From assembly GCA_963624975.1 (NCBI GenBank), contig CAVFRF010000046.1, positions 2,923 to 66,922 of the forward strand: a stretch of DNA of 64,000 bases, read 5' to 3'. Source of the DNA: Bacteroidaceae bacterium (GTDB lineage Bacteria > Actinomycetota > Coriobacteriia > Coriobacteriales > CADBOM01). Shown piece after piece: positions 49,657 through 60,882 of the stretch. Within the stretch, counting starts at the first letter, position 1. Every line of letters starts with the position of its first letter. The position numbers and the translations under genes were made by a program. The notes below the pieces were generated by a model. That model was not told the DNA's origin. It did no database searches and saw only the letters and a list, made by a program, of their open reading frames with translations.

Positions 49657-50571
49657 ATGCCGGTTCTGGCACAGGTTATTCTTCTCACATGCATCACCGG
49701 CATCGGCAGCGGAGCGCTGGGCGCGGGCATCGCGGCGCTCGTGAACTTCGAGTCCAACCGCATCGCCAGCATCATGCTGAGCTTTGCCGCCGGTCTGATG
49801 CTGGCCATCGTGTGCTTTGACTTCGTGCCCGAGGCGGTGGAGCTGGAAGAGGGCAACGCGCACCTCATGCTGGTGGTGCTGTGCATCGCCGCCGGCGCCG
49901 CGTTCGTGGGCGCGCTGGTGCACGTGATCGACAAGAAGGCCGAGAAGCACGCGCACTGCTGCGCGCTGGACGACCCCGAGATCGCCGCGGCCCTCGACGA
50001 GGCCGCCAAGAAGGCGCACATGCAGATGCACGACGACCTCGCGGCGCACTCCCGCGAGCATGGGCACGACCACCACGGCCATCATCACCATGCGGCCCCG
50101 TTCGAGGGCAAAAGTCCCGAGGCCCTCAAGATCGCGGGACTCGTGCTGGCAGCCGCGATCGCCATGCACAACATCCCCGCGGGCATGAGCATCGGCGCCT
50201 CGTTCGCCGACTCAACCGGCACTTTGGTGAGCGACGCGGTGGTAATCGCCCTGCTCATGGGGCTGCACAGCATCCCGGAGTCGATGTCGCTGGGCGTGCC
50301 GTTCCTGCGTGCAGGGTACAGCAAGGGCACGACCGTGGCCATCGCCGCGGTCGTGGGAGCCACCATGGTGGTGGGTGCGGCGATAGGATACCTCGTTGGC
50401 GGCATCGGCCTCTTCTGGCTGGGCATGAGCCTGGCCTTCGCCAGCGGCGCCATGCTCTACGTGCTCTTCGGCGAGATCCTGCCCGAGGCCTTCTCGCTCT
50501 TCCACTCAAAGCGTCCCACAGTGGCCGTGATCGTGGGCATTCTCTGCGGTCTGATGCTGGTGCATCTGTAG
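49657..50571 (+). CDS. ZIP-family divalent metal transporter (ZupT-like) with His-rich loop
   Basis: 304 aa with eight TM segments, a cytoplasmic HSREHGHDHHGHHHH loop, and the conserved HNIPEG-like (HNIPAG) and HSIPES motifs. Confidence 0.85.
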   Translation: MPVLAQVILLTCITGIGSGALGAGIAALVNFESNRIASIMLSFAAGLMLAIVCFDFVPEAVELEEGNAHLMLVVLCIAAGAAFVGALVHVIDKKAEKHAHCCALDDPEIAAALDEAAKKAHMQMHDDLAAHSREHGHDHHGHHHHAAPFEGKSPEALKIAGLVLAAAIAMHNIPAGMSIGASFADSTGTLVSDAVVIALLMGLHSIPESMSLGVPFLRAGYSKGTTVAIAAVVGATMVVGAAIGYLVGGIGLFWLGMSLAFASGAMLYVLFGEILPEAFSLFHSKRPTVAVIVGILCGLMLVHL

Positions 50572-50810: not shown

Positions 50811-51620
50811 CTACTCTTCGGGCTTCACGGGGAACAGCCCGGCCTTGTAGGCCCTGAGATAGGCTCCGCAATAGGGGTCGACGCCCATAAGAGCCGTGGT
50901 GGCGTGCATCGTGGCCAGCATATCCTCGCTCATGGAGTCCATGATGGCGCTGTCCATGCCAGCCTGCATGGTGAGCGACAGGAACTGCGTGTTGATGGCC
51001 TTGCGGTACGGCATGCCAAACGAGATGTTGGAGAGTCCCGAGGTAATGTGCACGTCGGGATACTCGGCCTTGATGCGATGGATGGTCTCGATGAAGCTCA
51101 CCATCGACTGCTGGTTGGTGGCCAACGTGGTCACAAGCGGGTCGATGAGGATGTTGTCGTGCGGAATGCCGTAGGCCTCGGCCCTCTTGATGATCTCTTT
51201 GGCGATGTCGAACTTGGTGGCCGGGTCGTCCGGGATTCCGTTGGTGTCGCAGGTAAGCGCCACGACCTTCCAGTCGGTTCCCTGGATGGCCGGCAGCACG
51301 GTCTCGCACTTGCCCTCCTCGAGGGAGATGGAGTTCATGCATCCCACCTTGTTGGCCATTGGCATGCACTTGACGATAACCGAGGGGTCGGGGCTGTCGA
51401 TGCACAGCGGAGTGTCCACGGTGTCCTGCACCAGGTTGATGAGCCACTCCATGACCTCCATCTCCACGTCGGGCTTGACGCCCGCGCACACGTCGATGTA
51501 GGTGGCGCCGCCGTCGGCCTGGCCCTTGGCGATGTACTTGATGTAATCGTCGTCCCTGGCCTCGATGGCAGCCAGGGTCTTGGGGATGAAGCCGTTGATC
51601 TTCTCGCCGATGATAATCAT
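50811..51620 (-). CDS. Methyltetrahydrofolate:corrinoid methyltransferase (pterin-binding TIM barrel, MtgA/MtqA/AcsE-like)
   Basis: 269 aa from ATG 51620 (AGGAGG RBS). It shows IIIGEKINGF, YIDVCAG, PLCIDS, NSISLEE and LSNISFG, the pterin-binding/MeTr pattern. Confidence 0.8.
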   Translation of the reverse strand: MIIIGEKINGFIPKTLAAIEARDDDYIKYIAKGQADGGATYIDVCAGVKPDVEMEVMEWLINLVQDTVDTPLCIDSPDPSVIVKCMPMANKVGCMNSISLEEGKCETVLPAIQGTDWKVVALTCDTNGIPDDPATKFDIAKEIIKRAEAYGIPHDNILIDPLVTTLATNQQSMVSFIETIHRIKAEYPDVHITSGLSNISFGMPYRKAINTQFLSLTMQAGMDSAIMDSMSEDMLATMHATTALMGVDPYCGAYLRAYKAGLFPVKPEE

Positions 51621-51777
51621 TTCCTTACCTCCTGTCGTTGTGGCTGAGGCAGATGCCTTTCGCATCTACGCCAGCTCCGGTTCCAGTCCAACAAACAATG
51701 CGCTACCTCTTGACCGCCTATGAACTCGCCTTCTCGCGCGTCCGGCCGTGCCTTCGCACGAGAAGGCGCTTGCCACC

Positions 51778-53805
51778 CTAGTCGTTGAGCGTCATTCCCC
51801 TTCCGCGGGTGTCCACGAAGAAGTGCTCTTTCCTGTCGCCGCGTTCCCACTCGGGCTGCTCGGTTGCGATGGCCTCGATACGGGTCTCGATGTAGATGTC
51901 TTTGTCGCCCGTGCCCGATTGCGCCTGAACGTCCTCGCAGTTGAGCGTGATCTCGATGTTCCTGGCACCGCTTTGCTGCGCAGCCTCGCGGGCCCTGTCC
52001 ACGGCGTACTGCCTGCCATACTCGACGGCGTCTTCGAGACGCTCGAACATCTTCATCTCCCATGCCGAGTGCAGGTTGAAGCCATCGTTGTTCTCGCCGG
52101 GGGTCACAAGGATCTTTACCGACTCGATAACCTTGCCCACTGCCGAGCCTATGGCGTTGGCCACCTCGGAGTTCTCGGGGATGATGAGCTGCGTTCCGAT
52201 GCGCTCGGCAGCGCGGGGCAGCCAGGCCTCGACGGGCGCGCCGATGCCGATGAGAGGAATGTTGGTCTTGATGGAGCAGGTCACGTACTCCCCGGCTCTG
52301 GGATGCAGCTGCTTGGCGAAGAAGTATGCCGCACCCGGGTCTTCCTTGAGATTGAACCTCGCGCCTTCGTGGATAGCCAGGCTCTGGATGCTGCAGTAGC
52401 AAAGCTCGTCGACGATGCGGTCGGCGGCCACGGCTATGAACTCGTCCATCTGCATGTCGAAGCGCTTGGCAAGAAGGCTCACCGCTCGTTTGGATGCATC
52501 GACGTCGAACGTGGAGAGCTTGCCCGCCGCATGCAGGATGTCGGTCGGCGTGACCGAAACCCTGCTCAGCACGCCCACGTTCACGAGCCTGTCGAGGTTG
52601 AGCAGGTTGGGCTCGGCCTCGATGCGCTCGGCGATGGTGAAGAACGTGTGCGGACCATCCTTGACGGCTTCGACCACCTTCTGCTCCGTGGCCGACAGCG
52701 ATGCCGTGGCATGCTTGTTGAGCAGCTTGAAGCAGTCGACCACCTGCACGTAGCGCAGCAGATAGGCGTACGGCACTATGACCCTGCGCAGCTCGTCGTT
52801 GAGATAGGGGAATTCCGATGCCGCCACGCAGATCGGAATCACGCGCTGCGGCCCCACCTGGAGGTTGCGGCCCATATCCATCTGGATGTAGCTGTCGCCG
52901 CCAAGCCCGTAGGTGTTGATCGAGGCGGCCTCCACCTGGGTGAGGAAGCCTCCCACGCGGGCTCCTTCCTCGTCGACCCTGGGCACGCCATCCTTTACCA
53001 CCGCGATGTCGGTGGTGGTACCGCCCATGTCCAGCACGAAGCCGTCCTTCACACCGGACAAGAAGCCCGCGCCTATGATCGAAGCCGCAGGACCGGAGAG
53101 CAGGGTCTCGATCGGCTTCTCCTGCGCCAGCTTCTCGCCCACCAGCGTGCCGTCGCCCTTCACCACCATGATCGGGGCATCCACGCCCTTCTCGTCGAGA
53201 GAAGCGCGCACCGACATCAGCAGTCGCTTGATGATCGGGATGAGCTTGGCGTTGAGCACCGCGGTAACGGTGCGCTCGTGAATCCCGAGCGAGCGCGTGA
53301 GGTGATGGGCGCACACCACTGGCAAGTCCAGCACCTCACGAACTAGCTCTTGCACACGCAGCTCGTGCTCTGGATTGCGCACGCTCAGATATCCCGAGAT
53401 GGCTATCGCGTCTACCTGGCCGCGCATCGACTCCAGCGCCTCGCGCACTGCATCTTCGTCGAGCGGCTCCTTGGCGATGCCCTTCACGTTGTGCCCGCCG
53501 GGCACGACGCGCAGCTCCGAGCACGGGATGTTGCCGTTTGGCTCGAAGCCTATCATCACCAGCCCGACCTCGCAGCCGGCGCCTTCCACGATGGCGTTGG
53601 TGGCGAGCGTGGTCGAAAGCGACACGATCTCGATGCTATCGAAGTCGTCGAACTCCATGCCGTTTATGCAACCGATGATGCCCCGGCTCAGGTCGTCGCG
53701 CGTCGTGAGGCTCTTGGCCTTCGCAAGCACCTTGCGAGCCGACCTGTCGATCACCACTCCGTCGGTATAGGTGCCACCTGTATCGATCCCAAGTACCAAC
53801 GACAT
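51778..53805 (-). CDS. Hydantoinase/oxoprolinase (HyuA-type) ASKHA-fold ATPase family protein, orphan (no HyuB partner)
   Basis: 675 aa. The N-terminal phosphate-1 motif LGIDTGGTYTDGVV and the second motif VLDMGGTTTDIAVV are typical of the Hydantoinase_A family. No Fe-S-type cysteine cluster is present. Confidence 0.75.
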   Translation of the reverse strand: MSLVLGIDTGGTYTDGVVIDRSARKVLAKAKSLTTRDDLSRGIIGCINGMEFDDFDSIEIVSLSTTLATNAIVEGAGCEVGLVMIGFEPNGNIPCSELRVVPGGHNVKGIAKEPLDEDAVREALESMRGQVDAIAISGYLSVRNPEHELRVQELVREVLDLPVVCAHHLTRSLGIHERTVTAVLNAKLIPIIKRLLMSVRASLDEKGVDAPIMVVKGDGTLVGEKLAQEKPIETLLSGPAASIIGAGFLSGVKDGFVLDMGGTTTDIAVVKDGVPRVDEEGARVGGFLTQVEAASINTYGLGGDSYIQMDMGRNLQVGPQRVIPICVAASEFPYLNDELRRVIVPYAYLLRYVQVVDCFKLLNKHATASLSATEQKVVEAVKDGPHTFFTIAERIEAEPNLLNLDRLVNVGVLSRVSVTPTDILHAAGKLSTFDVDASKRAVSLLAKRFDMQMDEFIAVAADRIVDELCYCSIQSLAIHEGARFNLKEDPGAAYFFAKQLHPRAGEYVTCSIKTNIPLIGIGAPVEAWLPRAAERIGTQLIIPENSEVANAIGSAVGKVIESVKILVTPGENNDGFNLHSAWEMKMFERLEDAVEYGRQYAVDRAREAAQQSGARNIEITLNCEDVQAQSGTGDKDIYIETRIEAIATEQPEWERGDRKEHFFVDTRGRGMTLND

Positions 53806-53992
53806 GATCTCTCACTCCTCAAACATGCTTCTCGAACTCCGGCAGCCCTGTGCTGCCCGCTAACCTCTTCGCTTTTCGGGGCTTGCGGAGGGGCTGCGAT
53901 CCGCAGATGCAACCCCTCCGCGCTCTTGTGCTGCTAGCCGCCCCGGGCCTCTCATGACCTTGTGCAAACCCAGCTAGCAGTACAGCCTGGCT

Positions 53993-55471
53993 CTATTCGC
54001 CGGGCATGTGTCCGACGGCGTTCTCAACGATGTCGCGCACCTGGGCTACGACGTCCTTGGGAAGCGGCTTGGCCTCGTGGTTCTCGATGATGTCGCGAAC
54101 CTTCTCGTTGGCCACCTGAGTGAGGCTCTTCGAGCCGGCCTTCTGCCAGATCTCGCGAGCGCCGCGGTTAACCAGGCGGTTCTTGTAGTCCACGCGGCTC
54201 TGCTTGGGAGTGAAGATGCCCTCTTCCTCCTCGATGGGCTCTGCCGGGGAGAACCGTCCACCGGGTCCGACCTTCTCGATCTCTTCGAGGGAGAGGGTCT
54301 CTTCGGTGGTCTGGATGCCGGCCGTGATCCTGCGGGCCATGCCCAGAACCTCGTCGGCGATAACGACCAGGTCGAGGTTGGAGGTGGTGCCGTACTCTGC
54401 ATAGCCGGTGTCGTGGTTGAGGTTTGCACCCGACATGTTGGTCATCGCCATGGAGATGGCGGCCTCGACGCCGGCCTGCTCGTCGATGATGCAGGAGTCG
54501 GTGCAGCCTGCGGTACCGAACATCGGTATGTGCAGGTAGTGGGCCACGTCGGCTAGTCCGGCCAGCAGGATGCTCAGCTCGGGAGCGCCGTAGGAGAAGA
54601 TCGTGGACCCCATGTCGAGCACCGTGTACACGCCGCCCATGATGAACGGGGCGCCCTCGTTGGTGCACTGGCTGAGCACGAGGCCGCTGAGCGACTCGCA
54701 CAGGCCCTGGACCATAACGCCTGCCATAGTCGCAGGTGCGGTTCCGCCTGCCATGATGCAGGGCGTGTAGATGGTGGGCAGGCCCTTCTTGGCGCCGTAG
54801 ACCATCTTCTGCGCTGCCTCGATGCAGTGGACGCCAGGCGAGATGGGCTCGGCGTACAGGCAGATGAACGGGTTGTTGCGAAGCTCTTCCTCGCCGCCAG
54901 CCACGATCTCGGCCATCTTGATGCAGTCTTCCTGACCATACTGGTCGACGCACACCGTGATGATGGGCTTCTCGGTGTTGAGGATCTGCTGCTCGAACTC
55001 ATGACGGTCGGAGATGAGCAGCGGCACGTCCTGCACGATGCCCAGCGACATCGCATAGTCGATGTTGGGCAGCGCGTCGAGAACCTTGGTAGCCCAGCCT
55101 ACGCTCTGACGTGTCGCGCGGTGGCGCTCGCCGGTGTAGGGGTTGCGGGTAAACGGGGTGCACGGGCCGGACCCGAAGTAGGAGTTGCCTCCCTCGAGGA
55201 ACAGCTCGCGCTCGCCGGTCCTGCTGTTGCACAGCACGATGTGCTTCTGGCACGTCTGCAGTGCGCGCTCGGTGATGTGAGCGGGGATGCGGACCCTAAT
55301 TCCGTCTACCGTGCATCCCGCCTTCTTCAGAATCTCGATGGATTCCGGATCATGGAACTCGGTGCCGGTCTTCCACATGGCCTCAGTTGCCGCGAACACA
55401 AGCTCCTGGCACTGGGCCTCGGAGAAGACGTTCATCTTCACACCGGTATTTGCATACAGGTTTGTTCTCAT
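53993..55471 (-). CDS. MttB-superfamily methyltransferase, non-pyrrolysine paralog 1
   Basis: 492 aa, an uninterrupted ORF with no in-frame TAG. Trimethylamine-methyltransferase-family blocks (GGTAPATMAG, YGAPE, GANLNHDTGY, VGPGG). It has an unusual acidic insert, SPAEPIEEEEGIF, after the GPGG motif. Confidence 0.85.
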   Translation of the reverse strand: MRTNLYANTGVKMNVFSEAQCQELVFAATEAMWKTGTEFHDPESIEILKKAGCTVDGIRVRIPAHITERALQTCQKHIVLCNSRTGERELFLEGGNSYFGSGPCTPFTRNPYTGERHRATRQSVGWATKVLDALPNIDYAMSLGIVQDVPLLISDRHEFEQQILNTEKPIITVCVDQYGQEDCIKMAEIVAGGEEELRNNPFICLYAEPISPGVHCIEAAQKMVYGAKKGLPTIYTPCIMAGGTAPATMAGVMVQGLCESLSGLVLSQCTNEGAPFIMGGVYTVLDMGSTIFSYGAPELSILLAGLADVAHYLHIPMFGTAGCTDSCIIDEQAGVEAAISMAMTNMSGANLNHDTGYAEYGTTSNLDLVVIADEVLGMARRITAGIQTTEETLSLEEIEKVGPGGRFSPAEPIEEEEGIFTPKQSRVDYKNRLVNRGAREIWQKAGSKSLTQVANEKVRDIIENHEAKPLPKDVVAQVRDIVENAVGHMPGE

Positions 55472-55483
55472 TTCTGCTTCTCC

Positions 55484-56953
55484 TTATCCAGCCGCATCGA
55501 CTTTGTCGACGATTGCAGCGAACTCCTTGGAGCCGTCCGCCAGAATCGCTGCCTTCTGATACGAGTTGAGCAGGTCCTCGGTCTTGTTGACCGTGCGGTC
55601 GCCCAGCGACAGGGAGCCTTCTGCTGCCCAGTCGTCGATGCGCTTGCGGTTCATGAGCGTGGGCCAGAACTGCTCCGACTTGAAGTAGTAGCGCGTGTGC
55701 AACGTGCCGAGGTAGTGTCCGCCGGGCTCGACCTCGTCGATCACGCCGCGGGCGAGGCGATCCTCGTCCATCTCGACGCCGCGCATGATGCGCCTGGTGA
55801 TGGCCGCCAGCTCATCGGCCAGGGTGAGCAGCATGAGGCTGAACGCGCATCCGCTCTCGACGGTGCCCGCGCCGTGAATCAGGTTGGTGCCCGCAAGGCC
55901 GGCCGTGAGGGTCGACATGGCGGACTCGAGACCTAGCTGGGCATCGGACATCTTGGAGTCGGTGGCTGCCGCGAATCCGAACGAGGGGATGCGCAGGTAG
56001 CGAAGCACTCCGGCGTAGCCGGCGCCGAGGAGGCTCACCTCGGGTGCGCCATAGGGCACCATCTGGTTGTCCACGTCGCAGCTGCCAAAGAATCCGCCGG
56101 TGATGAACGGTGCGCCTTCGGCAACCGCCTGCGACAGCACAAGAGCTGCGATGGAGTTGGCCAGCGCCACGATGAGCACGCCGGCGCTCTCGGAGGGAGC
56201 GGTGTGGCCGGCGATCAGCTCGTTGGAGAACACCACGGGGATGCCCTTCTCGGCTGCAAAGGCCACGATGTCGAGTGCCTCGCCACTGATGAGCAGGCTC
56301 TCGTCGGCTGCCACGTGCAGCACCACGCAGGGATCCCAGCGCAGCTTGTCTTCGGAACCCACGGCCGCGACTGCGAGGTCGTAGACGGCCTTGGCCTGGT
56401 TCATGCACTTCACGTTCTGAACGATCGGCTTGACGGTGGTTTCCAGCAGCGCCTTGAACGCGTGGACCTCGGCGGTCTTCGCCGGCACGTCGGTGGGCAC
56501 GCCGCCCGACATCGCGAAGTCGATTCCGGGAAGGCTGTCGACCAGCATTCCGACCTTCTCCACATCGGCGATCGTGAAGTCGCGAGGTGCCTCGGCATTG
56601 GCGTCCAGAATCTGCTTGCAGGCAAATCCGGGGCCGTAGTGCACGTGGTTGGTCTCGAGGACCATGGCCCTGTTGCCCTCGCGGTCGCAAAGCGTCACGC
56701 GGGAAGGCGCCACGCGCAAAGCCCATTCGCTCTTAGCGGAGGGAATGCGCACGCGGCCTCCCTCGACTCGGCATCCTGCGTCGGCAAAGATCTTGCAGGC
56801 TGCATCGCTCTTCGCCTCGAAGCCGGTCCTCTCGAGCAGCTCGAGCGCCCTTACGAGAACCGCCTCGCACTGGTCGTCTGTCAGCATCTCCCAGTGAAGG
56901 TTCTGCTGAACCTGGAAACCAGCCGTGGTGTACAAACTCTTGGTCCTATACAC
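55484..56953 (-). CDS. MttB-superfamily methyltransferase, non-pyrrolysine paralog 2
   Basis: 489 aa with a GTG start and AGGAGGAG 5 nt upstream. It has the same family blocks (TAPSESAG, YGAPE, GTNLIHGAGT, VEPGGHYLGTLHTRYYF). It is uninterrupted and sits 12 bp upstream of paralog 1. Confidence 0.85.
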   Translation of the reverse strand: MYRTKSLYTTAGFQVQQNLHWEMLTDDQCEAVLVRALELLERTGFEAKSDAACKIFADAGCRVEGGRVRIPSAKSEWALRVAPSRVTLCDREGNRAMVLETNHVHYGPGFACKQILDANAEAPRDFTIADVEKVGMLVDSLPGIDFAMSGGVPTDVPAKTAEVHAFKALLETTVKPIVQNVKCMNQAKAVYDLAVAAVGSEDKLRWDPCVVLHVAADESLLISGEALDIVAFAAEKGIPVVFSNELIAGHTAPSESAGVLIVALANSIAALVLSQAVAEGAPFITGGFFGSCDVDNQMVPYGAPEVSLLGAGYAGVLRYLRIPSFGFAAATDSKMSDAQLGLESAMSTLTAGLAGTNLIHGAGTVESGCAFSLMLLTLADELAAITRRIMRGVEMDEDRLARGVIDEVEPGGHYLGTLHTRYYFKSEQFWPTLMNRKRIDDWAAEGSLSLGDRTVNKTEDLLNSYQKAAILADGSKEFAAIVDKVDAAG

Positions 56954-56998
56954 AACAACTCCTCCTAACGTTTCCTCAAATCAGTCTTTCCTGTACGC

Positions 56999-57637
56999 CT
57001 ACTCGACGTTCATCAGCCTCTTGCAGAGGTCGGCTGCCGAAACCGCGTCGGGCGAATAGCCGTCGGCCGTGATCTCGTCGCAGAAGTCCTGCGATACGGG
57101 AGCGCCGCCGATGATGACCTTCACGTCGTCGCGCAGGCCCTCCTCCTTGAGCAGCTCGATGGTGTCCTTCATGTGCAGCATGGTGGTGGTGAGAAGAGCG
57201 GACATAGCCACGATGTCGGGCTTGTGCTCCTTCACGCCCTCGATGAAGGTCTCGGGCGCCACGTCGATGCCTGCGTTGATGACCTTGAAGCCGGCGCTCT
57301 CGAGCATCATGAGCACGAGGTTCTTGCCGATGTCGTGCAGGTCGCCCTTGACGGTGCCCAGGTACACGGTGCCCAGGCTCTTCATGTCGCCAGCTGCGAT
57401 AAGCGGCTTGACGATCGAAACGCCCTTGTCCATGGCCTCTGCCGCCGCGATAACCTCGGGAACGAACACCTTGTTGGCCTTGAACAGCACGCCCACCTCG
57501 GTCATGCCTGCAATCAGGCCATCGTTGATGATCTCGAGCGGAGCCACGCCCTGGTCGAGCAGCTCCTTGCTAAGCTTGTCTGCCTTTACCGCGTTGCCCT
57601 GTACAACAGCCTTCTGCAGATCTTCCATCGTTGCCAT
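56999..57637 (-). CDS. Corrinoid (B12-binding) protein of the MttC/MtgC/MtqC type
   Basis: 212 aa from ATG 57637 (AAGGAGG RBS). It has an N-terminal helical cap and a Rossmann B12-binding domain with the DxHxxG motif (GDLHDIGKN) and SALLTTT. Confidence 0.88.
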   Translation of the reverse strand: MATMEDLQKAVVQGNAVKADKLSKELLDQGVAPLEIINDGLIAGMTEVGVLFKANKVFVPEVIAAAEAMDKGVSIVKPLIAAGDMKSLGTVYLGTVKGDLHDIGKNLVLMMLESAGFKVINAGIDVAPETFIEGVKEHKPDIVAMSALLTTTMLHMKDTIELLKEEGLRDDVKVIIGGAPVSQDFCDEITADGYSPDAVSAADLCKRLMNVE

Positions 57638-57662
57638 AGCTAGCCTCCTTAAAACTGTTTGC

Positions 57663-57728
57663 CTTGCCTTACCGGTCCAACCAACTTGACACTTGCTACT
57701 TGCCACTTGCATGCATTTGCGACTTGCC
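57663..57728. repeat. Heptamer tandem repeat ACTTGNN x4 plus extra CTTGC copies in the BCCT/corrinoid-gene spacer
   Basis: Plus strand: ACTTGAC ACTTGCT ACTTGCC ACTTGCA (57684-57711), ACTTGCC again at 57722-57728, and CCTTGCC at 57662-57668. On the coding (minus) strand these read as GCAAG(T) repeats 45-90 nt upstream of the corrinoid-protein ATG. Confidence 0.8.
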
Positions 57729-57784
57729 TGCCATCGTCCATCGCCTCGTCAGGCGATTAGAGCCTTGTTCGAACCTCCCTGTGC

Positions 57785-57829
57785 AGCGGGCCTCGCGCCT
57801 CGCATTCCCTGTGTATCGCGAGGCCCGCT
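57785..57829 (-). terminator. Strong stem-loop after the BCCT gene (no U-tract; attenuator/processing site candidate)
   Basis: Perfect 13-bp stem AGCGGGCCTCGCG (57785-57797) and CGCGAGGCCCGCT (57817-57829) with a 19-nt loop. Confidence 0.4.
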
Positions 57830-57854
57830 TCGGGGTCCTTGCGCCCAGCTTGCG

Positions 57855-59459
57855 CTAGGCTCCATCGGGTGCTTCGAGCGCTTCGAGTGTTTCTGGCTCT
57901 TCCGGCACCCTGTCTTTCTTCTTCTTGCGCCGGTCCATTAGCGGAGTTGTGTCTGCATCGGGGTCGAACTCCTGCTTGAGCGATATGTAGATGCCGGCGC
58001 ACATGAATATCAGCACGAATATGAACGGGAAGGCCGCCACCACCGAAGCTGTCTGCAGCGTCTTGAGCGCCGCCTCGCCTCCCGCAAGGATGAGCACGAT
58101 CGTCACGGCTCCCTGTGCGATGCCCCAGAATGCGCGGTACTTCTTGGGCGGATCCATCTCGCCGCCCATCGTGAGCATGGGGAGCACGAATGTCGCAGAA
58201 TCGGCAGCTCCCACGAAGCAGATGAGTACGAGGAACAGAGCCAGAGGTCCGGTGACCTGATACAGCGGCAGCTGCTGGAGCAGTGCGTAGAGCGCCGTGG
58301 TGTAGTCGTTGTTCACAGCGGCCTGGATTGCTCCGCCAGAAGCGGCATCTTGGAAGAAAGCCGCACCACCGTAGATCGTCATCCAGAAGAAGGAGAAGCC
58401 TGCCGGCAGAAACGTTCCGCCCAACACCATCTGGCGCACCGTGCGGCCCCTGGACACTCGGGCAAAGAACTGCCCGCAGAAGGGAGACCATGCGATCCAC
58501 CATGCCCAGTAGAACACCGTCCAGGACGAGAGCCATTCGGGGTCTCCGTACCACAGCGACTGGCCTATGAACGAGGAGATATAGGCTCCGAGGGTGTCGG
58601 TCATGTGCTGCATGATGAACACAAAGCCACCGAACACCAGCAGGAACACCATGAACGCGACTGCCAGCCAAACCTTGATGTTCACGATCTTGGCCATCCA
58701 CTTGTGCAGACCCGAAACCGTAGCCAGGGTAAACACCGCCGTGATGATGCCTATGAGTATCGCCGTGAACGCCGGATTGGTTTCGATAGCCCATATATAT
58801 CCGAACCCGCCGGCTATCTGCAAAGCTCCAAGACCGAGGCTCGTGGATATGCCGAACACCGTGGCGAACACCGAGATGATGTCGACGGTATATCCGATCC
58901 ATCCGTTAACGCGCTCTCCGATGAGCGGGTAGAACGACGAACTGATGAGGAACGGGCGATTCTTGCGGTACTGGGCGTACGCCAGCGCCAGTCCGACCAC
59001 TCCGAACAGCCCCCAGCAGTGCACGCCTTCGTGCATGAACGCGAGCCTCATGCCCGTTCGCATGGCTTCTGCCGTGAAAGGATCGTCCATCGGACCTGTG
59101 GCGTAGTGTATCATCGGCTCCGCAACGGCCCAGAACACTAGACCGATTCCGATTCCGCCACCGAACAGAAGGGCGAACCACTGGAAGTTGCTGAACTCCG
59201 GTTTTTCGTCGTCTCTGCCGAGTCTGATCTTTCCATATTTGGAGATGGCTATTGCCAGTCCAAAGATCAGGAAAGCGAACGTCATTATGAGGTAGAACCA
59301 CCCCAGGTCGTCGCAGAGGAACGAGTTGACTGCGTTCACGCCTACGGCCAGAGCATCCGGAAACACCGCCCCGAAGAGCGTGAATCCGATCACTATGATC
59401 ATAGAGACGATCAGCACGGTCCTGTTCTTGCCGCCCGCTGCGCCATTTGCTCCTGACAT
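57855..59459 (-). CDS. BCCT-family (betaine/carnitine/choline) transporter
   Basis: 534 aa from ATG 59459 (GGGAGGGGG 4 nt upstream; the track start is 59474). It has 12 TM segments and BCCT signatures (FQWFALLFGGGIGIGLVFWAVAEP, WTVFYWAWWIAWSPF). Confidence 0.88.
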   Translation of the reverse strand: MSGANGAAGGKNRTVLIVSMIIVIGFTLFGAVFPDALAVGVNAVNSFLCDDLGWFYLIMTFAFLIFGLAIAISKYGKIRLGRDDEKPEFSNFQWFALLFGGGIGIGLVFWAVAEPMIHYATGPMDDPFTAEAMRTGMRLAFMHEGVHCWGLFGVVGLALAYAQYRKNRPFLISSSFYPLIGERVNGWIGYTVDIISVFATVFGISTSLGLGALQIAGGFGYIWAIETNPAFTAILIGIITAVFTLATVSGLHKWMAKIVNIKVWLAVAFMVFLLVFGGFVFIMQHMTDTLGAYISSFIGQSLWYGDPEWLSSWTVFYWAWWIAWSPFCGQFFARVSRGRTVRQMVLGGTFLPAGFSFFWMTIYGGAAFFQDAASGGAIQAAVNNDYTTALYALLQQLPLYQVTGPLALFLVLICFVGAADSATFVLPMLTMGGEMDPPKKYRAFWGIAQGAVTIVLILAGGEAALKTLQTASVVAAFPFIFVLIFMCAGIYISLKQEFDPDADTTPLMDRRKKKKDRVPEEPETLEALEAPDGA

Positions 59460-59486
59460 TGCGCCCCCTCCCATCTATCTGCTAGT

Positions 59487-59557
59487 TGCTTGTCCTGTGC
59501 TTGCATGTGCTTGCTTTGATTGCATCGGGTTCGTCCTTGCGTCGACTGTTTCGACTG
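59487..59557. repeat. Helical-phase short direct repeats in the BCCT leader (TGCTTG x3; TCGACTG x2)
   Basis: TGCTTG occurs at 59487, 59498 and 59508 (11- and 10-bp spacing), including the tandem decamers GTGCTTGCAT/GTGCTTGCTT. TCGACTG occurs at 59542 and 59551. On the minus strand these read CAAGCA, sharing the GCAAG core with the repeats at 57663-57728. Confidence 0.75.
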
Positions 59558-59925
59558 CTCGGACCCTCGAACCCTTTGCGCACCTTGAAGTTTATGGAGC
59601 GCGATTTGCGGAAGATAGGAATTTGCAAGCCTGCATTGAGAGGTCAATTTTTTCGATTTTTAATCGGTTTTGGGAAAAGCTTGCCGAGGTCTGCGATTTT
59701 TGAACAAGAATTTGCCAAAGGAAGAATTGATTGTGCTTAATGTTGACCAGCTTTGGTGATTTATTTGCTATAACCTATCTCTGGGGTTGGCGAGAAGGTT
59801 ATTTGTACCGTTTGACTATTCAACGCGATACCAGCCAGCTTGGCTGTCGCGCCCGCATCTTTCACTTGCATATGCGTTGTTCGCCTGCGCCCCGATGTCA
59901 TTCGATAGCGTGAAGGGAGTCTGTC

Positions 59926-60882
59926 ATGACTCAAAACGAACTCGACCTCGAGAGAGAAAATCGGGCGGCAATGCCCCAGATATTCGACCGTCTGTGCGTG
60001 GCAGCCAAGCTCATCAACGTAACCATGGATCACGAATGCCTCGTGATCGGGCGATCCAACGGAATCGCCATGGAGATTCCCCCGCACCATCTCGGAAAGT
60101 GCTTTTGCAAGCGCCTGGCCGCCATCAGCGGCGAGAGCATCAACATCGAGCACTTGTTCGAGAAGTCGGCCGACATGAGCGCCAACAGCACGCATCTAAT
60201 ATATACGTGCCCGTTCGGCCTCACCAACATCATGGTTCCGGTGGTCAAGAACGGCCACGTGATGTCGGTGCTGCAGGTTGGCCCCATCCTCACCACTGAT
60301 CCCAACGAGATATTGCAGAAACACGCCCTTTCGCGCAACAACATCGATGCGGCAAGCCTGCACGACTTGAGGGCATATCTGGAGGGACTGCCACATGGCG
60401 ACATCGACTACGTGATGGCGCTTGCCGAGATGGTTACCATCCTCATCGGCGAGAAGGTGGTAGACGTTGCCAACCCGATCGTGAACCTAGAGGAGGTAGA
60501 GCAGCACTCCGCACCCGAGGCGTGTTCTGAGGTCATCGATGCTGCACTCGACTTTATCGACAAGCACTTTACCGACAACGAGATTTCGCTCAACACCGTG
60601 GCGGAGGGCGTGTACGTGCATCCCTCGCATCTTTCGAGGCTGTTCTCCCAGCAGATGAACTGCCGGTTTCGCGGATACATCAACCAGCTCAGGGTCAATC
60701 TGGCATCCAAGTTGCTAACAGAAACAGGCGAGAGCATCAACGACATATGCCACGAAGTGGGCTTTTCGGACCAGTCGTACTTCGTGAAGATCTTCAAGCA
60801 ATACCATGGAGTAACGCCCAGCCAGTACCGCAAGCAGACCACCTACAAGAACGACCCGCTTCCGCGCGACTTCATACCATAG
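59926..60882 (+). CDS. AraC-family transcriptional regulator with N-terminal PocR-type sensor domain
   Basis: 318 aa. The N-terminal half carries PocR-like features (LIYTCPFGLTNIMVPVVKNGHVMSVLQVGP). The C-terminal AraC double HTH includes LNTVAEGVYVHPSHLSRLFSQ and ICHEVGFSDQSYFVKIFKQYHGVTPSQYR. It is divergent from the BCCT operon. Confidence 0.85.
   Translation: MTQNELDLERENRAAMPQIFDRLCVAAKLINVTMDHECLVIGRSNGIAMEIPPHHLGKCFCKRLAAISGESINIEHLFEKSADMSANSTHLIYTCPFGLTNIMVPVVKNGHVMSVLQVGPILTTDPNEILQKHALSRNNIDAASLHDLRAYLEGLPHGDIDYVMALAEMVTILIGEKVVDVANPIVNLEEVEQHSAPEACSEVIDAALDFIDKHFTDNEISLNTVAEGVYVHPSHLSRLFSQQMNCRFRGYINQLRVNLASKLLTETGESINDICHEVGFSDQSYFVKIFKQYHGVTPSQYRKQTTYKNDPLPRDFIP

What the first reader, a model, noticed from the sequence alone, without database searches (positions are those of the whole stretch)
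50811..60882. Corrinoid-dependent methyltransferase locus with two divergent non-Pyl MttB paralogs and unassigned substrate(s)
Six co-oriented minus-strand genes form a complete import-and-demethylate-to-THF module: a BCCT importer, a B12-binding protein, MttB paralog 2, MttB paralog 1, a HyuA-like ASKHA ATPase and a methylcorrinoid:THF methyltransferase. A divergent PocR-AraC regulator is adjacent. Characterised non-pyrrolysine MttB-superfamily members each act on one quaternary amine: MtgB on glycine betaine, MtpB on proline betaine, MtcB on carnitine and MtyB on gamma-butyrobetaine. Here two paralogs sit 12 bp apart behind a single corrinoid protein. Both are uninterrupted, with no in-frame TAG. 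By eye, well under half of their aligned residues are identical. They differ sharply after the GPGG block: paralog 1 has an acidic insert SPAEPIEEEEGIF where paralog 2 has YLGTLHTRYYF. This suggests two substrates, or two successive demethylations, feeding one corrinoid carrier. The substrate cannot be read from the sequence.
Basis: partly seen in the sequence, partly recalled or inferred. Interest (0 to 1): 0.75.

Follow-up and report, generated by a model that had tools for sequence, protein, structure and literature searches.

The report
Paired MttB methyltransferase operon, probable dimethylglycine demethylase
This gut-actinobacterial operon is a vitamin-B12-dependent system that strips methyl groups from a glycine-betaine-type compound, and its two look-alike enzymes appear to be one working subunit (with cysteines where related enzymes carry the rare amino acid pyrrolysine) plus one degenerate partner, which points to a still-uncharacterised way of demethylating dimethylglycine without oxygen.

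Summary
Six co-oriented minus-strand genes are present: BCCT importer, corrinoid protein, two uninterrupted MttB paralogs 12 bp apart (32% identical), a HyuA-type ATPase and a methyl-corrinoid:THF methyltransferase. A divergent PocR-AraC regulator sits alongside.

The pair is not a local oddity. It is an ancient, co-inherited tandem found in about 45 loci, in Eggerthellaceae, Sporomusa, Desulfosporosinus, Ca. Formimonas and Tissierella. Holland et al. 2022 already drew it as a second "glycine-betaine" cluster type and showed it is induced on betaine. No one has characterised it biochemically.

What I add is mainly this:
- Paralog 1 is about 80% conserved across phyla. It has invariant Cys238, Cys323 (exactly the pyrrolysine position), His353-Asp354, and Phe where MtgB has its carboxylate-binding Arg.
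- Paralog 2 has lost this site but keeps the conserved C-terminal dimerisation-loop motif, which paralog 1 has lost.
- This reciprocal pattern predicts a heterodimer with one active site.

In related loci, canonical MtgB, sarcosine-type reductase or the glycine cleavage system lies beside the pair. That context, with published physiology, points to dimethylglycine to sarcosine as the reaction.

The HyuA-like protein keeps company with B12-reactivation genes, so it is probably a corrinoid-maintenance accessory.

All mechanisms are inferred. My verdict is a new variant of a known kind.

The parts
59926..60882 (+). Divergent PocR-sensor/AraC-type transcription regulator
   Evidence: Pfam PocR, HTH_18 and HTH_AraC. 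It is below the PocR equivalog cut-off, 124 against 500 bits. Homologs at 34-45% identity occupy the same divergent position in L005, L008, L010, L011, L013, L014, L035 and L039.
57855..59474 (-). BCCT-family importer (start codon uncertain; called as 530 aa in L001)
   Evidence: Pfam BCCT, 561 bits. NCBIfam glycine-betaine-uptake BCCT model, 638 bits against a cut-off of 650. BCCT subfamily TIGR00842, 441 against 408.
56999..57712 (-). Cognate corrinoid protein (likely start at 57637, giving 212 aa)
   Evidence: B12-binding_2 plus B12-binding. The GDLHDIG (DxHxxG) motif is read from the translation. It is below the MtgC cut-offs. It is 64-74% identical to the corrinoid proteins of the homologous clusters.
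55484..56953 (-). MttB paralog 2 ('Mtt2-I'): barrel site degenerate, dimerisation-loop motif intact; proposed non-catalytic partner
   Evidence: PF06253. At the family's active-site columns it reads E245, F325, A330, H360, G361, and these columns vary across 30 orthologs in loci and 117 database relatives. The loop residues Y/L/H/T are 30 of 30 conserved. Mean identity to orthologs is 53%.
53993..55471 (-). MttB paralog 1 ('Mtt1-I'): proposed catalytic methyltransferase I
   Evidence: PF06253. Mean identity to orthologs in Firmicutes and Synergistota is 80%. The best PDB relative is the pyrrolysine enzyme MttB 7xcl.
54401..55009 (-). Invariant barrel signature of paralog 1: D155, D182, Y206, T236-P237-C238, F318, C323 (pyrrolysine position), H353-D354, Y357
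   Evidence: 46 of 46 sequences in loci and 116-119 of 119 database representatives carry it. The phmmer alignment to 7xcl gives C238=M249, C323=Pyl334 and H353=Y364.
54200..54265 (-). Degenerate C-terminal loop of paralog 1, containing the lineage-specific acidic insert PIEEEEGIF
   Evidence: The PGG-H-(F/Y)-L...H-T motif is invariant in Mtt2-I, in both group II paralogs and in the MtgB clade. In Mtt1-I it is replaced by R/N/K, A/G/E/D, H/F/Y and T/E/V/I.
51778..53805 (-). Stand-alone HyuA-type ASKHA ATPase ('HydA')
   Evidence: Pfam Hydant_A_N plus Hydantoinase_A. AF2 model with pLDDT 84.8. Full-length Foldseek matches to N-methylhydantoinase 9h03, acetone carboxylase beta 5svc_B, Apc 5l9w and caprolactamase 6yra_A. 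It has no Fe-S motif, and there is no HyuB gene in the gene calls within about 10 kb on either side.
50811..51665 (-). Methyl-corrinoid:tetrahydrofolate methyltransferase (MTII, MtgA-like; likely start at 51620, giving 269 aa)
   Evidence: Pterin_bind. NF005719, 340 bits against a cut-off of 259.
55867..55968 (-). PYLIS_3-like sequence inside paralog 2 (probably a coding-sequence homology relic)
   Evidence: Rfam RF02510, 45.3 bits against a gathering score of 38, E=7e-7. It starts one codon before the pyrrolysine-equivalent codon A330. A similar hit lies in the Frackibacter Mtt1-II gene.

Best explanation
The locus is a member of a widespread but biochemically uncharacterised operon type. I call it the HydA-linked MttB-pair cluster.

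Proposed mechanism, step by step:
1. A betaine-type substrate enters through the BCCT carrier.
2. An N-methyl group is transferred to the Co(I) corrinoid protein by a heterodimer of the two MttB paralogs.
3. The MtgA-like enzyme passes the methyl group on to tetrahydrofolate.

Paralog 1 is the catalytic subunit. Pyrrolysine-MttB has Met249, Pyl334 and Tyr364 around the substrate site. At the same positions paralog 1 has invariant Cys238, Cys323 and His353-Asp354. It also has Phe318 where MtgB has its carboxylate-binding Arg312. I infer a Cys2-His(-Asp) metal site, most likely Zn. It would bind the amine and/or carboxylate of a non-quaternary substrate and polarise the N-CH3 bond for attack by Co(I). 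This would do the job that pyrrolysine does for trimethylamine and that Zn does for methanol in MtaB.

Paralog 2 has lost that site. It retains the conserved C-terminal loop that, in solved family structures, reaches into the partner's active-site rim and helps dock the corrinoid protein. It is therefore the structural, loop-donating subunit.

The most likely reaction is N,N-dimethylglycine to sarcosine. Glycine betaine itself may be handled by a canonical MtgB elsewhere in the genome.

The HyuA-type ATPase is most likely an ATP-dependent accessory for keeping the corrinoid cofactor active, rather than a substrate enzyme.

Shown: gene content, orthology, conservation patterns, and co-expression on betaine in an orthologous system. 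Inferred: the heterodimer, the metal, the substrate and the HydA role.
For: Conserved unit and ancient duplication:
- CoP-Mtt2-(CoP)-Mtt1-HydA recurs in about 33 'group I' loci, and a sister arrangement in about 13 'group II' loci.
- It also appears in three loci found by anchoring on paralog 1 rather than on HydA.
- In the NJ tree, Mtt1 and Mtt2 are sister clades with mirrored sub-clades. Together they lie nearer to pyrrolysine-MttB than to the MtgB clade.

Active site:
- The C238/F318/C323/H353/D354 pattern is 46 of 46 in Mtt1, 12 of 12 in the first MttB gene of group II loci, and 117-119 of 119 in database representatives.
- Position equivalences are confirmed by phmmer alignment.
- Those MttB positions line the substrate cavity (PMC9842639).

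Reciprocal degeneration:
- Sixteen columns conserved in all Cys-type clades are lost only in Mtt2-I, and all sixteen lie in the barrel.
- The loop motif is invariant in Mtt2-I but degenerate in the otherwise ultra-conserved Mtt1-I. Fisher p=0.004.
- The same pattern holds in L084, L085 and L086.
- The loop completes the partner's site and docks the corrinoid protein in MttB and MtgB structures.
- A second corrinoid protein lies between the two genes in 11 of 12 group II loci but in only 6 of about 31 group I loci.

Substrate:
- The orthologs Ga0180325_114734-38 are strongly induced on glycine betaine in strain DCMF.
- DCMF performs exactly two demethylations, GB to DMG to sarcosine, and grows on DMG.
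- Canonical MtgB does not use DMG or sarcosine.
- Canonical MtgB and sarcosine-type GrdG/GrdF flank the pair in one operon in D. fructosivorans.
- GrdX-GrdG/F lies next to the pair in Sporomusa, Dehalobacterium and two Coriobacteriia MAGs.
- The glycine cleavage system lies next to the pair in L086.
- Sporomusa ferments DMG and sarcosine.

HydA:
- It is a full-length HyuA fold.
- Its homologs neighbour DUF1638 (20 loci), RACo (8 loci), MetH-activation-domain-like proteins (13 loci), URO-D methyltransferases with a corrinoid protein, and a protein with a B12-binding domain.
- DUF1638 and RamA-like proteins are genetically tied to B12 reactivation.
- In L084 a MetH-activation-like gene sits where HydA normally sits.
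Against: - There is no biochemical evidence for any member of this clade.
- Spatial clustering of the Cys and His residues is inferred from alignment to published structures. It was not measured on coordinates.
- Position 104 is not conserved (C, D or G), so the metal ligand set is uncertain.
- Some group I loci (DCMF, Desulfosporosinus, Thermacetogenium) keep a corrinoid protein in front of each paralog, and both paralogs are abundant in the DCMF proteome. That would also fit two active enzymes.
- Paralog 2's rate of change (about 53% identity) is ordinary for a working enzyme. It is paralog 1 that is unusually slow.
- DCMF has a second betaine-induced MttB cluster that could be the DMG enzyme instead.
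- The window itself has no canonical MtgB, Grd, RACo or DUF1638, and its importer scores as a near-glycine-betaine BCCT. GB could therefore be the true substrate here.
- HydA co-occurs with RACo in several loci, so its role is not simply that of RACo.
Confidence: 0.5

Rival explanations
1. Both paralogs are independent, catalytically active methyltransferases that share one corrinoid protein. Paralog 2 demethylates the quaternary amine glycine betaine to DMG and needs no activating site. Paralog 1 demethylates DMG to sarcosine.
For: - The operon has a betaine-type BCCT importer and no canonical MtgB within 64 kb.
- Related Coriobacteriia loci go directly from this module to GrdX-GrdG/F, which would need two demethylations if they start from GB.
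- Some Firmicutes keep a corrinoid protein before each paralog, and both paralogs are induced on GB.
- Paralog 2 has aromatic residues F325 and F327 near the pyrrolysine position that could form a cation-pi box.
Against: - Paralog 2's pocket columns vary even between close relatives: E, K, R or N at 245; H, Y, A, S or G at 360. That is not expected for a fixed substrate.
- It lacks the Arg312 equivalent, which is reported as conserved in MtgB, MtcB, MtpB, MtyB and MthB.
- Paralog 1 as a homodimer would lack the loop motif conserved in every clade examined here except Mtt1-I.
- In DCMF and D. fructosivorans a canonical MtgB sits in the same cluster, which would make a second GB enzyme redundant.
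Confidence: 0.25
2. The pair acts on sulfur-methyl compounds, for example DMSP to methylmercaptopropionate to mercaptopropionate. The Cys/His site would be a zinc site that stabilises a thiolate leaving group, as in MetH, MetE and MtaA-type enzymes.
For: - Zinc with thiolate chemistry is the commonest use of Zn in methyl transfer (general knowledge).
- BCCT carriers can import DMSP (general knowledge).
- The invariant Cys2-His pattern fits.
Against: - Orthologs are induced by glycine betaine.
- The pair lies in a betaine-induced cluster in Sporomusa.
- It is linked to sarcosine-type reductase and glycine cleavage genes.
- The hosts are gut, groundwater and sludge anaerobes, not marine DMSP specialists.
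Confidence: 0.07
3. Paralog 1 is a pyrrolysine-independent methyltransferase for trimethylamine or another simple methylamine. Reductive cleavage of betaine would supply the amine.
For: - The clade is the nearest neighbour of pyrrolysine-MttB.
- The Sporomusa sphaeroides multi-omics paper labels betaine-induced genes in this region mttBC and proposes TMA oxidation.
Against: - TMA needs no BCCT importer.
- Strain DCMF carries the cluster, was tested on TMA, and TMA is not among its listed substrates. It also makes no TMA from betaine.
- Sporomusa additionally has genuine pyrrolysine-type methylamine methyltransferases.
Confidence: 0.05
4. The HyuA-like ATPase activates the substrate, for example by phosphorylating it, before demethylation. 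This would parallel the choline kinase MthK in the E. limosum phosphocholine system. It would not be servicing the corrinoid.
For: - Known HyuA-type subunits are generally held to be ATP-dependent activators of inert carbonyl substrates (general knowledge); the fold match is.
- MthK sets a precedent for ATP use in an MttB pathway.
- HydA lies immediately downstream of the catalytic paralog in nearly every locus.
Against: - HydA homologs accompany unrelated MttB subtypes, URO-D-type methyltransferases and a B12-domain protein, so the common denominator is the cofactor.
- Their recurrent neighbours are B12-reactivation genes.
- In D. fructosivorans a MetH-activation-like gene replaces HydA.
- In L086 the pair lacks HydA altogether.
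Confidence: 0.2

Closest known systems
'Type B' glycine-betaine methyltransferase cluster of Ca. Formimonas warabiya DCMF (Ga0180325_114734-114738), Sporomusa ovata (SOV_3c09370-09310) and Ca. Frackibacter (Holland et al. 2022, PMC9768040)
   Same: It is orthologous. Identity to the DCMF proteins is 82% for paralog 1, 53% for paralog 2, 56% for HydA and 67-68% for the corrinoid protein. The order CoP-MTI-MTI-HydA is the same.
   Different: The window has a single corrinoid protein, a PocR-AraC regulator instead of a sigma-54 activator, and no canonical MtgB or Grd genes alongside. It sits in an actinobacterial (Coriobacteriia-like) genome. The published work gives proteomics and synteny only. 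It labels both MTIs 'MtgB' and HydA 'unknown'.
MtgB, glycine betaine:corrinoid methyltransferase (D. hafniense DSY3156; PDB 2QNE/9YCE)
   Same: It belongs to the same superfamily, with a TIM-barrel dimer. It has the same partners: corrinoid protein, THF methyltransferase and BCCT importer.
   Different: Identity is 26-29% and the clade is separate. The GB-binding residues Y97, R312 and F356 are replaced by P/F, F and G; only H348 is kept.
MttB, pyrrolysine-dependent trimethylamine methyltransferase (M. barkeri; PDB 7XCL)
   Same: It is the nearest solved relative of paralog 1, at 30% identity and 192 bits. The active-site positions map one to one.
   Different: There is no UAG codon and no pyrrolysine. 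Cys replaces Pyl334 and Met249, and His replaces Tyr364. Both paralogs are below the TIGR02369 cut-off, 353 and 335 against 525 bits.
MtaB, methanol:corrinoid methyltransferase with a Glu/Cys/Cys zinc site
   Same: This is an analogy of mechanism only. MtaB is a TIM-barrel MT1 that uses a Cys-rich metal site to activate a poor leaving group. This rests on my knowledge of the literature; zinc dependence is cited, reference 32.
   Different: It is an unrelated family. Zinc in paralog 1 is untested.
MthB/MthK phosphocholine system of Eubacterium limosum (PMC12155760)
   Same: It is an MttB-family operon with an ATP-using accessory protein.
   Different: MthK is a serine-kinase-like choline kinase, not a HyuA fold. 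MthB is reported to keep the Arg312 equivalent.
RamA/RACo reductive activators, and GlmL/MutL accessory proteins of B12 enzymes
   Same: They are ASKHA-type ATPases encoded next to corrinoid enzymes. HydA gives a faint MutL/GlmL match.
   Different: HydA has no Fe-S domain. It co-occurs with RACo in at least 8 loci. Its fold is that of HyuA subunits.

Membership tests
MttB superfamily (PF06253) | Full-length match to the MTTB profile | tested here: met
   Paralog 1 scores 261.5 bits and paralog 2 scores 254.9 bits, against a cut-off of 25.
Pyrrolysine trimethylamine methyltransferase MttB (TIGR02369 equivalog) | In-frame UAG (pyrrolysine) and a score above the equivalog cut-off | tested here: not met
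   Neither gene has an in-frame TAG. Scores are 352.7 and 334.7 against 525 bits. The pyrrolysine position is Cys in paralog 1 and Ala in paralog 2.
MtgB glycine betaine methyltransferase | GB-binding residues Y97, R312, H348, F356 (PMC13080624) | tested here: not met
   Paralog 1 reads P103, F318, H353, G361. Paralog 2 reads F110, F325, H360, G368. The canonical clade reads Y/R/H/(Y,F) in 12 of 12 sequences.
MtgB glycine betaine methyltransferase | Placement in the clade that contains D. hafniense MtgB | tested here: not met
   In the NJ tree of 121 sequences both paralogs fall in a separate clade, sister to pyrrolysine-MttB. This is a distance tree only, without bootstrap support.
MtcB / MtpB / MtyB / MthB (E. 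limosum quaternary-amine enzymes) | Sequence orthology, and the conserved Arg312 equivalent reported for these enzymes | tested here: inconclusive
   I could not fetch their sequences. The literature states that they conserve R312, and both window paralogs have Phe there. Direct identity was not measured.
HydA-linked MttB-pair ('type B') cluster | Order CoP-MttB(degenerate)-MttB(Cys-type)-HyuA-like, with orthologous proteins | tested here: met
Cys-type MttB clade (defined here) | D155, D182, Y206, TPC238, F318, C323, H353-D354, Y357 | tested here: met
   Paralog 1 has all of these residues. Paralog 2 has only F325, the F318 equivalent, and H360, the H353 equivalent.
Zinc-dependent corrinoid methyltransferase (mechanistic class) | Bound catalytic metal | not testable with these tools
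   Only the ligand-like residues are seen. The tools give no coordinates and no metal analysis.
Methyltransferase-cognate corrinoid protein | B12-binding cap plus Rossmann domain with DxHxxG | tested here: met
   PF02607 plus PF02310. The motif GDLHDIG is in the translation. TIGR02370 scores 213.6 against 215.3, just under the cut-off, and the MtgC models are below their cut-offs.
Methyl-corrinoid:THF methyltransferase (MTII) | Pterin-binding domain above the NF005719 cut-off | tested here: met
   340.5 against 259 bits.
Glycine betaine uptake BCCT (NF047988 equivalog) | Score above the equivalog cut-off | tested here: not met
   638 against 650 bits, a narrow miss. The BCCT subfamily TIGR00842 is met, 441 against 408.
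Hydantoinase/oxoprolinase/acetone-carboxylase enzymes | HyuA-type subunit fold | tested here: met
   Pfam domains. Full-length Foldseek matches with TMq 0.56-0.62.
Hydantoinase/oxoprolinase/acetone-carboxylase enzymes | A partner HyuB-type subunit | tested here: not met
   There is no Hydantoinase_B gene in the Pfam-annotated gene calls within about 10 kb on either side, nor in L003 and L084-L086.
RamA/RACo reductive activase | Fe-S (Fer2 or 4Fe-4S) domain plus RACo middle and C-terminal domains | tested here: not met
   HydA gives no such Pfam hits. Genuine RACo genes are separate neighbours in 8-9 related loci, and none is in the window.

The most novel reading that the evidence does not exclude
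Paralog 1 would represent a pyrrolysine-independent solution, within the MttB fold, to the problem of activating non-quaternary methylamines. A Cys2-His(-Asp) metal site sits exactly where pyrrolysine sits. It would let Co(I) remove a methyl group from N,N-dimethylglycine, and in some lineages from sarcosine. The enzyme would be an obligate heterodimer with a catalytically dead paralog that donates the active-site and corrinoid-docking loop. A stand-alone HyuA-type ATPase would serve it as a new kind of corrinoid-maintenance factor. This would identify the missing anaerobic dimethylglycine demethylase.
Probability: 0.3. Interest if true: 0.85.

Novelty: new variant of a known kind. Interest (0 to 1): 0.62.

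Why it matters
The enzyme for anaerobic demethylation of glycine betaine to dimethylglycine is well characterised (MtgB). The enzyme that removes the next methyl group in anaerobes such as Sporomusa and Ca. Formimonas has never been identified. MtgB does not touch dimethylglycine.

The field's working rule is that non-pyrrolysine MttB homologs act on quaternary amines, and that simple or partly methylated amines need pyrrolysine. A conserved clade with cysteines at the pyrrolysine position, tied by gene context to sarcosine reductase and glycine cleavage, would break that rule. It would also give a directly testable candidate.

Dimethylglycine is a common product of gut betaine metabolism. A Coriobacteriia operon that consumes it would add a cross-feeding link in methylamine and TMA-related gut chemistry.

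The catalytic-plus-degenerate heterodimer and the HyuA-type accessory would be new features for corrinoid methyltransferase systems. They also bear on annotation: thousands of 'trimethylamine methyltransferase family' genes are currently lumped together.

Tried and rejected
- **Acidic insert as a specificity determinant.** Rejected. It occurs only in the Eggerthellaceae-type copies, Tissierella has a different insert at the same spot, and Sporomusa and DCMF have none.
- **HydA simply replacing RACo.** Rejected. The two co-occur in 8-9 loci.
- **HydA specific to Cys-type MttB.** Rejected. It also neighbours 'TAYVDA'-type MttBs, URO-D methyltransferases and a B12-domain protein.
- **Position 104.** The MAFFT alignment placed C104 opposite MttB Thr111. 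phmmer puts G100-S101 there and C104 next to the MtgB-Y97 equivalent. I therefore dropped the 'fourth ligand = T111 position' claim. Position 104 is in any case C, D or G.
- **Cobalamin riboswitch or other RNA element in the leader and intergenic regions.** None found at E<=1.
- **Promoter and terminator scan.** No excess over shuffles.
- **Grd, RACo or DUF1638 genes in the window.** None found by tblastn. Ten of the larger genes sampled outside the locus are housekeeping or have no Pfam match: RsgA, TrkH, AddAB-like, F1 ATPase and an L,D-transpeptidase.
- **Direct phylogeny with MtcB, MtpB, MtyB and MthB.** Not possible. Their sequences could not be retrieved with the scans that remained, so I relied on the published statement about R312.
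- **Organism name.** Exact-sequence cluster look-up returned no names. Taxonomy is inferred from the nearest loci, which are Eggerthellaceae and Coriobacteriaceae MAGs.
- **Literature on a Cys/zinc-type MttB.** I found nothing in the searchable library. Ticak et al. 2014 was not held.

Full report
**1. Observation**

- an MtgA-like pterin-binding methyltransferase, 50811-51665(-)
- a 675-aa HyuA-type protein, 51778-53805(-)
- two MTTB-family genes, 53993-55471(-), 'paralog 1', and 55484-56953(-), 'paralog 2'
- a corrinoid protein, 56999-57712(-)
- a BCCT carrier, 57855-59474(-)
- a divergent PocR/AraC regulator, 59926-60882(+)

The paralogs are 12 bp apart, have no in-frame TAG, and are 32% identical. 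The quoted sequence strings are real.

The same locus occurs on a public MAG contig, GCA_964395585.1, and in a Logan assembly. The nearest relatives of all its proteins are from Eggerthellaceae and Coriobacteriaceae MAGs of ruminant and human guts. Ten of the larger genes sampled outside the locus are ordinary chromosomal genes or have no Pfam match.

**2. The pair is a conserved, co-inherited unit, and it has been seen before**

Homolog searches showed that relatives of paralog 1 and of paralog 2 repeatedly share the same contigs.

In Sporomusa sphaeroides the order is corrinoid protein, paralog-2-like, paralog-1-like, HyuA-like. This lies next to glycine/sarcosine/betaine-reductase genes, SelB and two BCCT genes.

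A genome-collection scan anchored on the HyuA-like protein returned 79 loci. I annotated them by BLAST against the window proteins. Two groups emerged:
- **Group I, about 33 loci.** Order: CoP-Mtt2(~50% id)-(CoP)-Mtt1(~80% id)-HydA. Hosts include Eggerthellaceae, Sporomusa, Desulfosporosinus, Ca. Formimonas, Syntrophaceticus, Thermacetogenium, Tissierella, Acidaminobacter and a Synergistaceae MAG.
- **Group II, about 13 loci.** Order: CoP-MttB-CoP-MttB-HydA-MtgA. Hosts include Ca. Frackibacter, Acididesulfobacillus, Desulfosporosinus, Moorella and Fuchsiella.

Three further loci found by anchoring on paralog 1 also carry the pair.

Holland et al. 2022 (PMC9768040) drew this architecture as a second type of 'glycine betaine methyltransferase cluster'. 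They found all of Ga0180325_114734-114742 strongly induced on glycine betaine in strain DCMF. Within that cluster the two MttB genes of the pair, the two corrinoid proteins and the HyuA-like 'unknown' are the orthologs of the window genes, at 82%, 53%, 56% and 67-68% identity. A Sporomusa sphaeroides multi-omics study likewise reports a betaine-induced 58-kb cluster holding such genes. No member has been assayed.

**3. Where the paralogs sit in the family**

I built a distance tree of 121 MttB ORFs from these loci, adding D. hafniense MtgB (9YCE) and M. barkeri MttB (7XCL). Mtt1 and Mtt2 are sister clades with mirrored internal structure. Together they lie next to pyrrolysine-MttB, away from the canonical MtgB clade, which includes DCMF 114740.

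Identity to MtgB and to MttB is only 26-30%. Both paralogs are below the TIGR02369 cut-off.

**4. Active-site comparison**

The MtgB structure and mutagenesis paper defines Y97 and F356 (cation-pi) and R312 and H348 (carboxylate) as the glycine-betaine site. It states that R312 is conserved in MtcB, MtpB, MtyB and MthB (PMC13080624).

Both window paralogs have Phe at the R312 position and Gly at F356. Only the His is kept. Neither is therefore an MtgB by this test.

In MttB, the residues Gly110/Thr111, Met249, Pyl334 and Tyr364 surround the substrate cavity (PMC9842639). phmmer aligns paralog 1 as follows:

| Paralog 1 | MttB position |
|---|---|
| C238 | Met249 |
| C323 | Pyl334 |
| H353 | Tyr364 |

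The pattern C238/F318/C323/H353/D354 is invariant in 46 of 46 Mtt1 sequences and in 12 of 12 first-gene (upstream) MttB sequences of group II loci. Together with D155, D182, Y206, T236, P237 and Y357 it is found in 116-119 of 119 database representatives at 53-89% identity.

Position 104, which lies next to the MtgB-Y97 equivalent, is C, D or G. An initial MAFFT placement of it opposite Thr111 was wrong.

I found no description of this signature in the searchable literature.

**5. Reciprocal degeneration**

- **What paralog 2's clade (Mtt2-I) has lost.** Sixteen columns are conserved in all Cys-type clades and lost only in Mtt2-I. All sixteen lie in the TIM barrel. Its residues at the key columns vary even among close relatives: E/K/R/N; A/G/I; H/Y/A/S/G.
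- **What paralog 1's clade (Mtt1-I) has lost.** In Mtt1-I, 68% of columns are at least 90% conserved, against 28% in Mtt2-I. Mean identity to the window is 80%, against 53%. The same motif is invariant in Mtt2-I (Y, L, H, T each 30 of 30), in both group II paralogs and in the MtgB clade.

In the solved MttB and MtgB dimers this C-terminal loop forms part of the rim of the partner's cavity, and in MttB-MttC it stabilises docking of the corrinoid protein.

The pattern is what a heterodimer with a single functional site predicts. That site would lie in paralog 1's barrel and be completed by paralog 2's loop. The other site, and the loop serving it, would be released from constraint.

Two further points agree with this:
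- A corrinoid-protein gene lies between the two MttB genes in 11 of 12 group II loci, where both sites are intact. It does so in only 6 of about 31 group I loci. Elsewhere the two genes abut, as in the window.
- The same reciprocal pattern holds in the independently retrieved L084, L085 and L086.

This remains an inference. Some group I loci keep two corrinoid proteins, and both paralogs are abundant in the DCMF proteome.

**6. Substrate**

The physiological and genomic evidence runs as follows:
- Strain DCMF converts glycine betaine to about 1 monomethylamine, grows on dimethylglycine, and uses sarcosine only reductively with H2. It therefore performs exactly two demethylations, GB to DMG to sarcosine (PMC8163858).
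- D. hafniense MtgB does not accept DMG or sarcosine.
- Sporomusa ovata ferments betaine, DMG and sarcosine.
- In D. fructosivorans one operon reads GrdX, GrdG-like, selenoprotein, MtgA, CoP, Mtt2, CoP, Mtt1, MetH-activation-like, MtrH, canonical-type MttB (Y/R/L/H pattern), CoP, BCCT, DUF1638.
- GrdX with reductase subunits is adjacent to the pair in Sporomusa, Dehalobacterium and two Coriobacteriia MAGs, with SECIS and tRNA-Sec nearby. The best model match of the subunits tested (S. ovata L017 and Coriobacteriaceae L005) is sarcosine GrdG/GrdF, below cut-off partly because the ORFs stop at the Sec codon.
- In a metagenomic contig the pair follows the glycine cleavage system and lipoylation genes.

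With GB covered by canonical MtgB and sarcosine covered by Grd, the unfilled step is DMG to sarcosine. I therefore favour DMG as the substrate, with sarcosine as well in some lineages.

Caveats:
- DCMF has another betaine-induced MttB cluster.
- The window shows no MtgB or Grd within 64 kb.
- Its BCCT scores just under the glycine-betaine-uptake model. GB, or a role for paralog 2 in GB demethylation, cannot be excluded here.

**7. Mechanistic proposal for the Cys site**

A protonated or metal-coordinated tertiary amine is the functional equivalent of a quaternary amine. Pyrrolysine achieves this for TMA by forming an adduct.

A Cys2-His(-Asp) site at the same place suggests a catalytic metal, most likely Zn. 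It would bind the amine, and perhaps the carboxylate, which would explain the loss of Arg312. It would make the N-methyl group electrophilic. This is analogous to the Zn(Glu,Cys,Cys) site that activates methanol in MtaB, a comparison I draw from my knowledge of the literature.

Alternatives such as thiolate or S-methyl chemistry are listed as rivals. Nothing here demonstrates a metal.

**8. The HyuA-like protein**

The AF2 model has pLDDT 84.8. It matches HyuA-type subunits over its full length: N-methylhydantoinase, acetone carboxylase beta, acetophenone carboxylase and caprolactamase alpha.

ASKHA phosphate motifs are invariant. There is no Fe-S motif and no HyuB partner gene.

Across the loci its homologs sit beside:
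- several MttB subtypes
- URO-D-type methyltransferases with a corrinoid protein
- a 591-aa protein with a B12-binding domain, next to an aminotransferase
- DUF1638, in 20 loci
- RACo, in 8 loci
- a MetH-activation-domain-like protein, in 13 loci and often immediately upstream of HydA

DUF1638 and RamA-like proteins are genetically linked to B12 reactivation (PMC5764234). In D. fructosivorans the MetH-activation-like gene occupies HydA's usual slot.

The common denominator is the corrinoid cofactor. I therefore favour an ATP-dependent corrinoid-maintenance role at about 0.55, over substrate activation of the MthK kind at about 0.2.

**9. Verdict**

It is not unprecedented as an architecture. 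It is, however, an uncharacterised and mechanistically distinctive variant of the corrinoid methyltransferase systems.

The most valuable outcome of this check is a concrete, testable hypothesis: a Cys-type catalytic MttB, a degenerate loop-donating paralog and a HyuA-type accessory together make up the candidate anaerobic dimethylglycine demethylase.

Noticed in passing
window 55867-55968 (-), inside paralog 2; also L042 9408-9507: There is an Rfam PYLIS_3 hit ('pyrrolysine insertion sequence mttB') above the gathering score, 45.3 against 38 bits. It starts within one codon of the pyrrolysine-equivalent codon, although the gene has no UAG. A similar hit lies in the Frackibacter Cys-type gene. 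It probably reflects coding-sequence homology with true mttB, or a relic of a pyrrolysine-using ancestor.
   Followed up: partly
window 49657-50571 (+): [quoted passage not shown] This is notable given the proposed Zn site. However, it was found only in this strain's contigs (L001, L002) and not in the other related loci, so it may be coincidence.
   Followed up: partly
L005 12954-15785 and L006 5120-8000 (Coriobacteriaceae/Eggerthellaceae MAGs): In close relatives the same operon continues directly into GrdX, a GrdG-like subunit and a GrdF-like selenoprotein. In L005 a SECIS_4 element, tRNA-Sec and SelB lie nearby. The best matches of the subunits tested (GrdF-like from L005, GrdG-like from S. 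ovata) are to sarcosine reductase models. The window lacks these genes.
   Followed up: partly
L017 2050-2706, L071 3299-3985, L040/L060/L061/L075/L078 immediately upstream of HydA, L084 8641-9297: A protein family of about 220-240 aa has a C-terminal CxxC...C motif and no Pfam hit for most members. By profile search it is related to the methionine-synthase activation domain (PDB 1J6R at 2e-9; Met_synt_B12 in 4 of 7 members). It is a recurrent partner of the HyuA-like gene.
   Followed up: partly
L076, L080, L081 (Bacteroidaceae/Eubacteriales MAGs): More distant HyuA-like homologs, at 40-42% identity, sit next to a 591-aa protein with a C-terminal B12-binding domain, a class-III aminotransferase, a 464-aa protein that looks like an aldehyde dehydrogenase (not run through Pfam) and a GntR-like regulator. 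This may be an unrelated B12-dependent pathway that uses the same accessory.
   Followed up: no
L086 1-8488 (JGI metagenome contig, 439 kb): The degenerate plus Cys-type MttB pair occurs without a corrinoid protein or HydA nearby. It lies directly after the glycine cleavage system (GcvT/H/PA/PB) and LplA/LipA, and before an amino-acid ABC transporter.
   Followed up: partly
L046, L048, L051, L052, L058 (Syntrophomonadaceae, Thermacetogenium and Syntrophaceticus MAGs): Here the HyuA-like homologs sit in a housekeeping context, followed by RecO and what look like the two glycyl-tRNA synthetase subunits (these two were not run through Pfam). There is no corrinoid gene adjacent, apart from a DUF1638 gene in L048. 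The family is therefore not always operon-linked to methyltransferases.
   Followed up: no
window 50811-51665, 56999-57712, 57855-59474: The longest ORFs overshoot the likely starts. Public gene calls on the near-identical contig give 269 aa (MTII), 212 aa (corrinoid protein) and 530 aa (BCCT). The window is a close strain of L001 rather than identical to it: the ZIP protein is 98.7% identical.
   Followed up: partly
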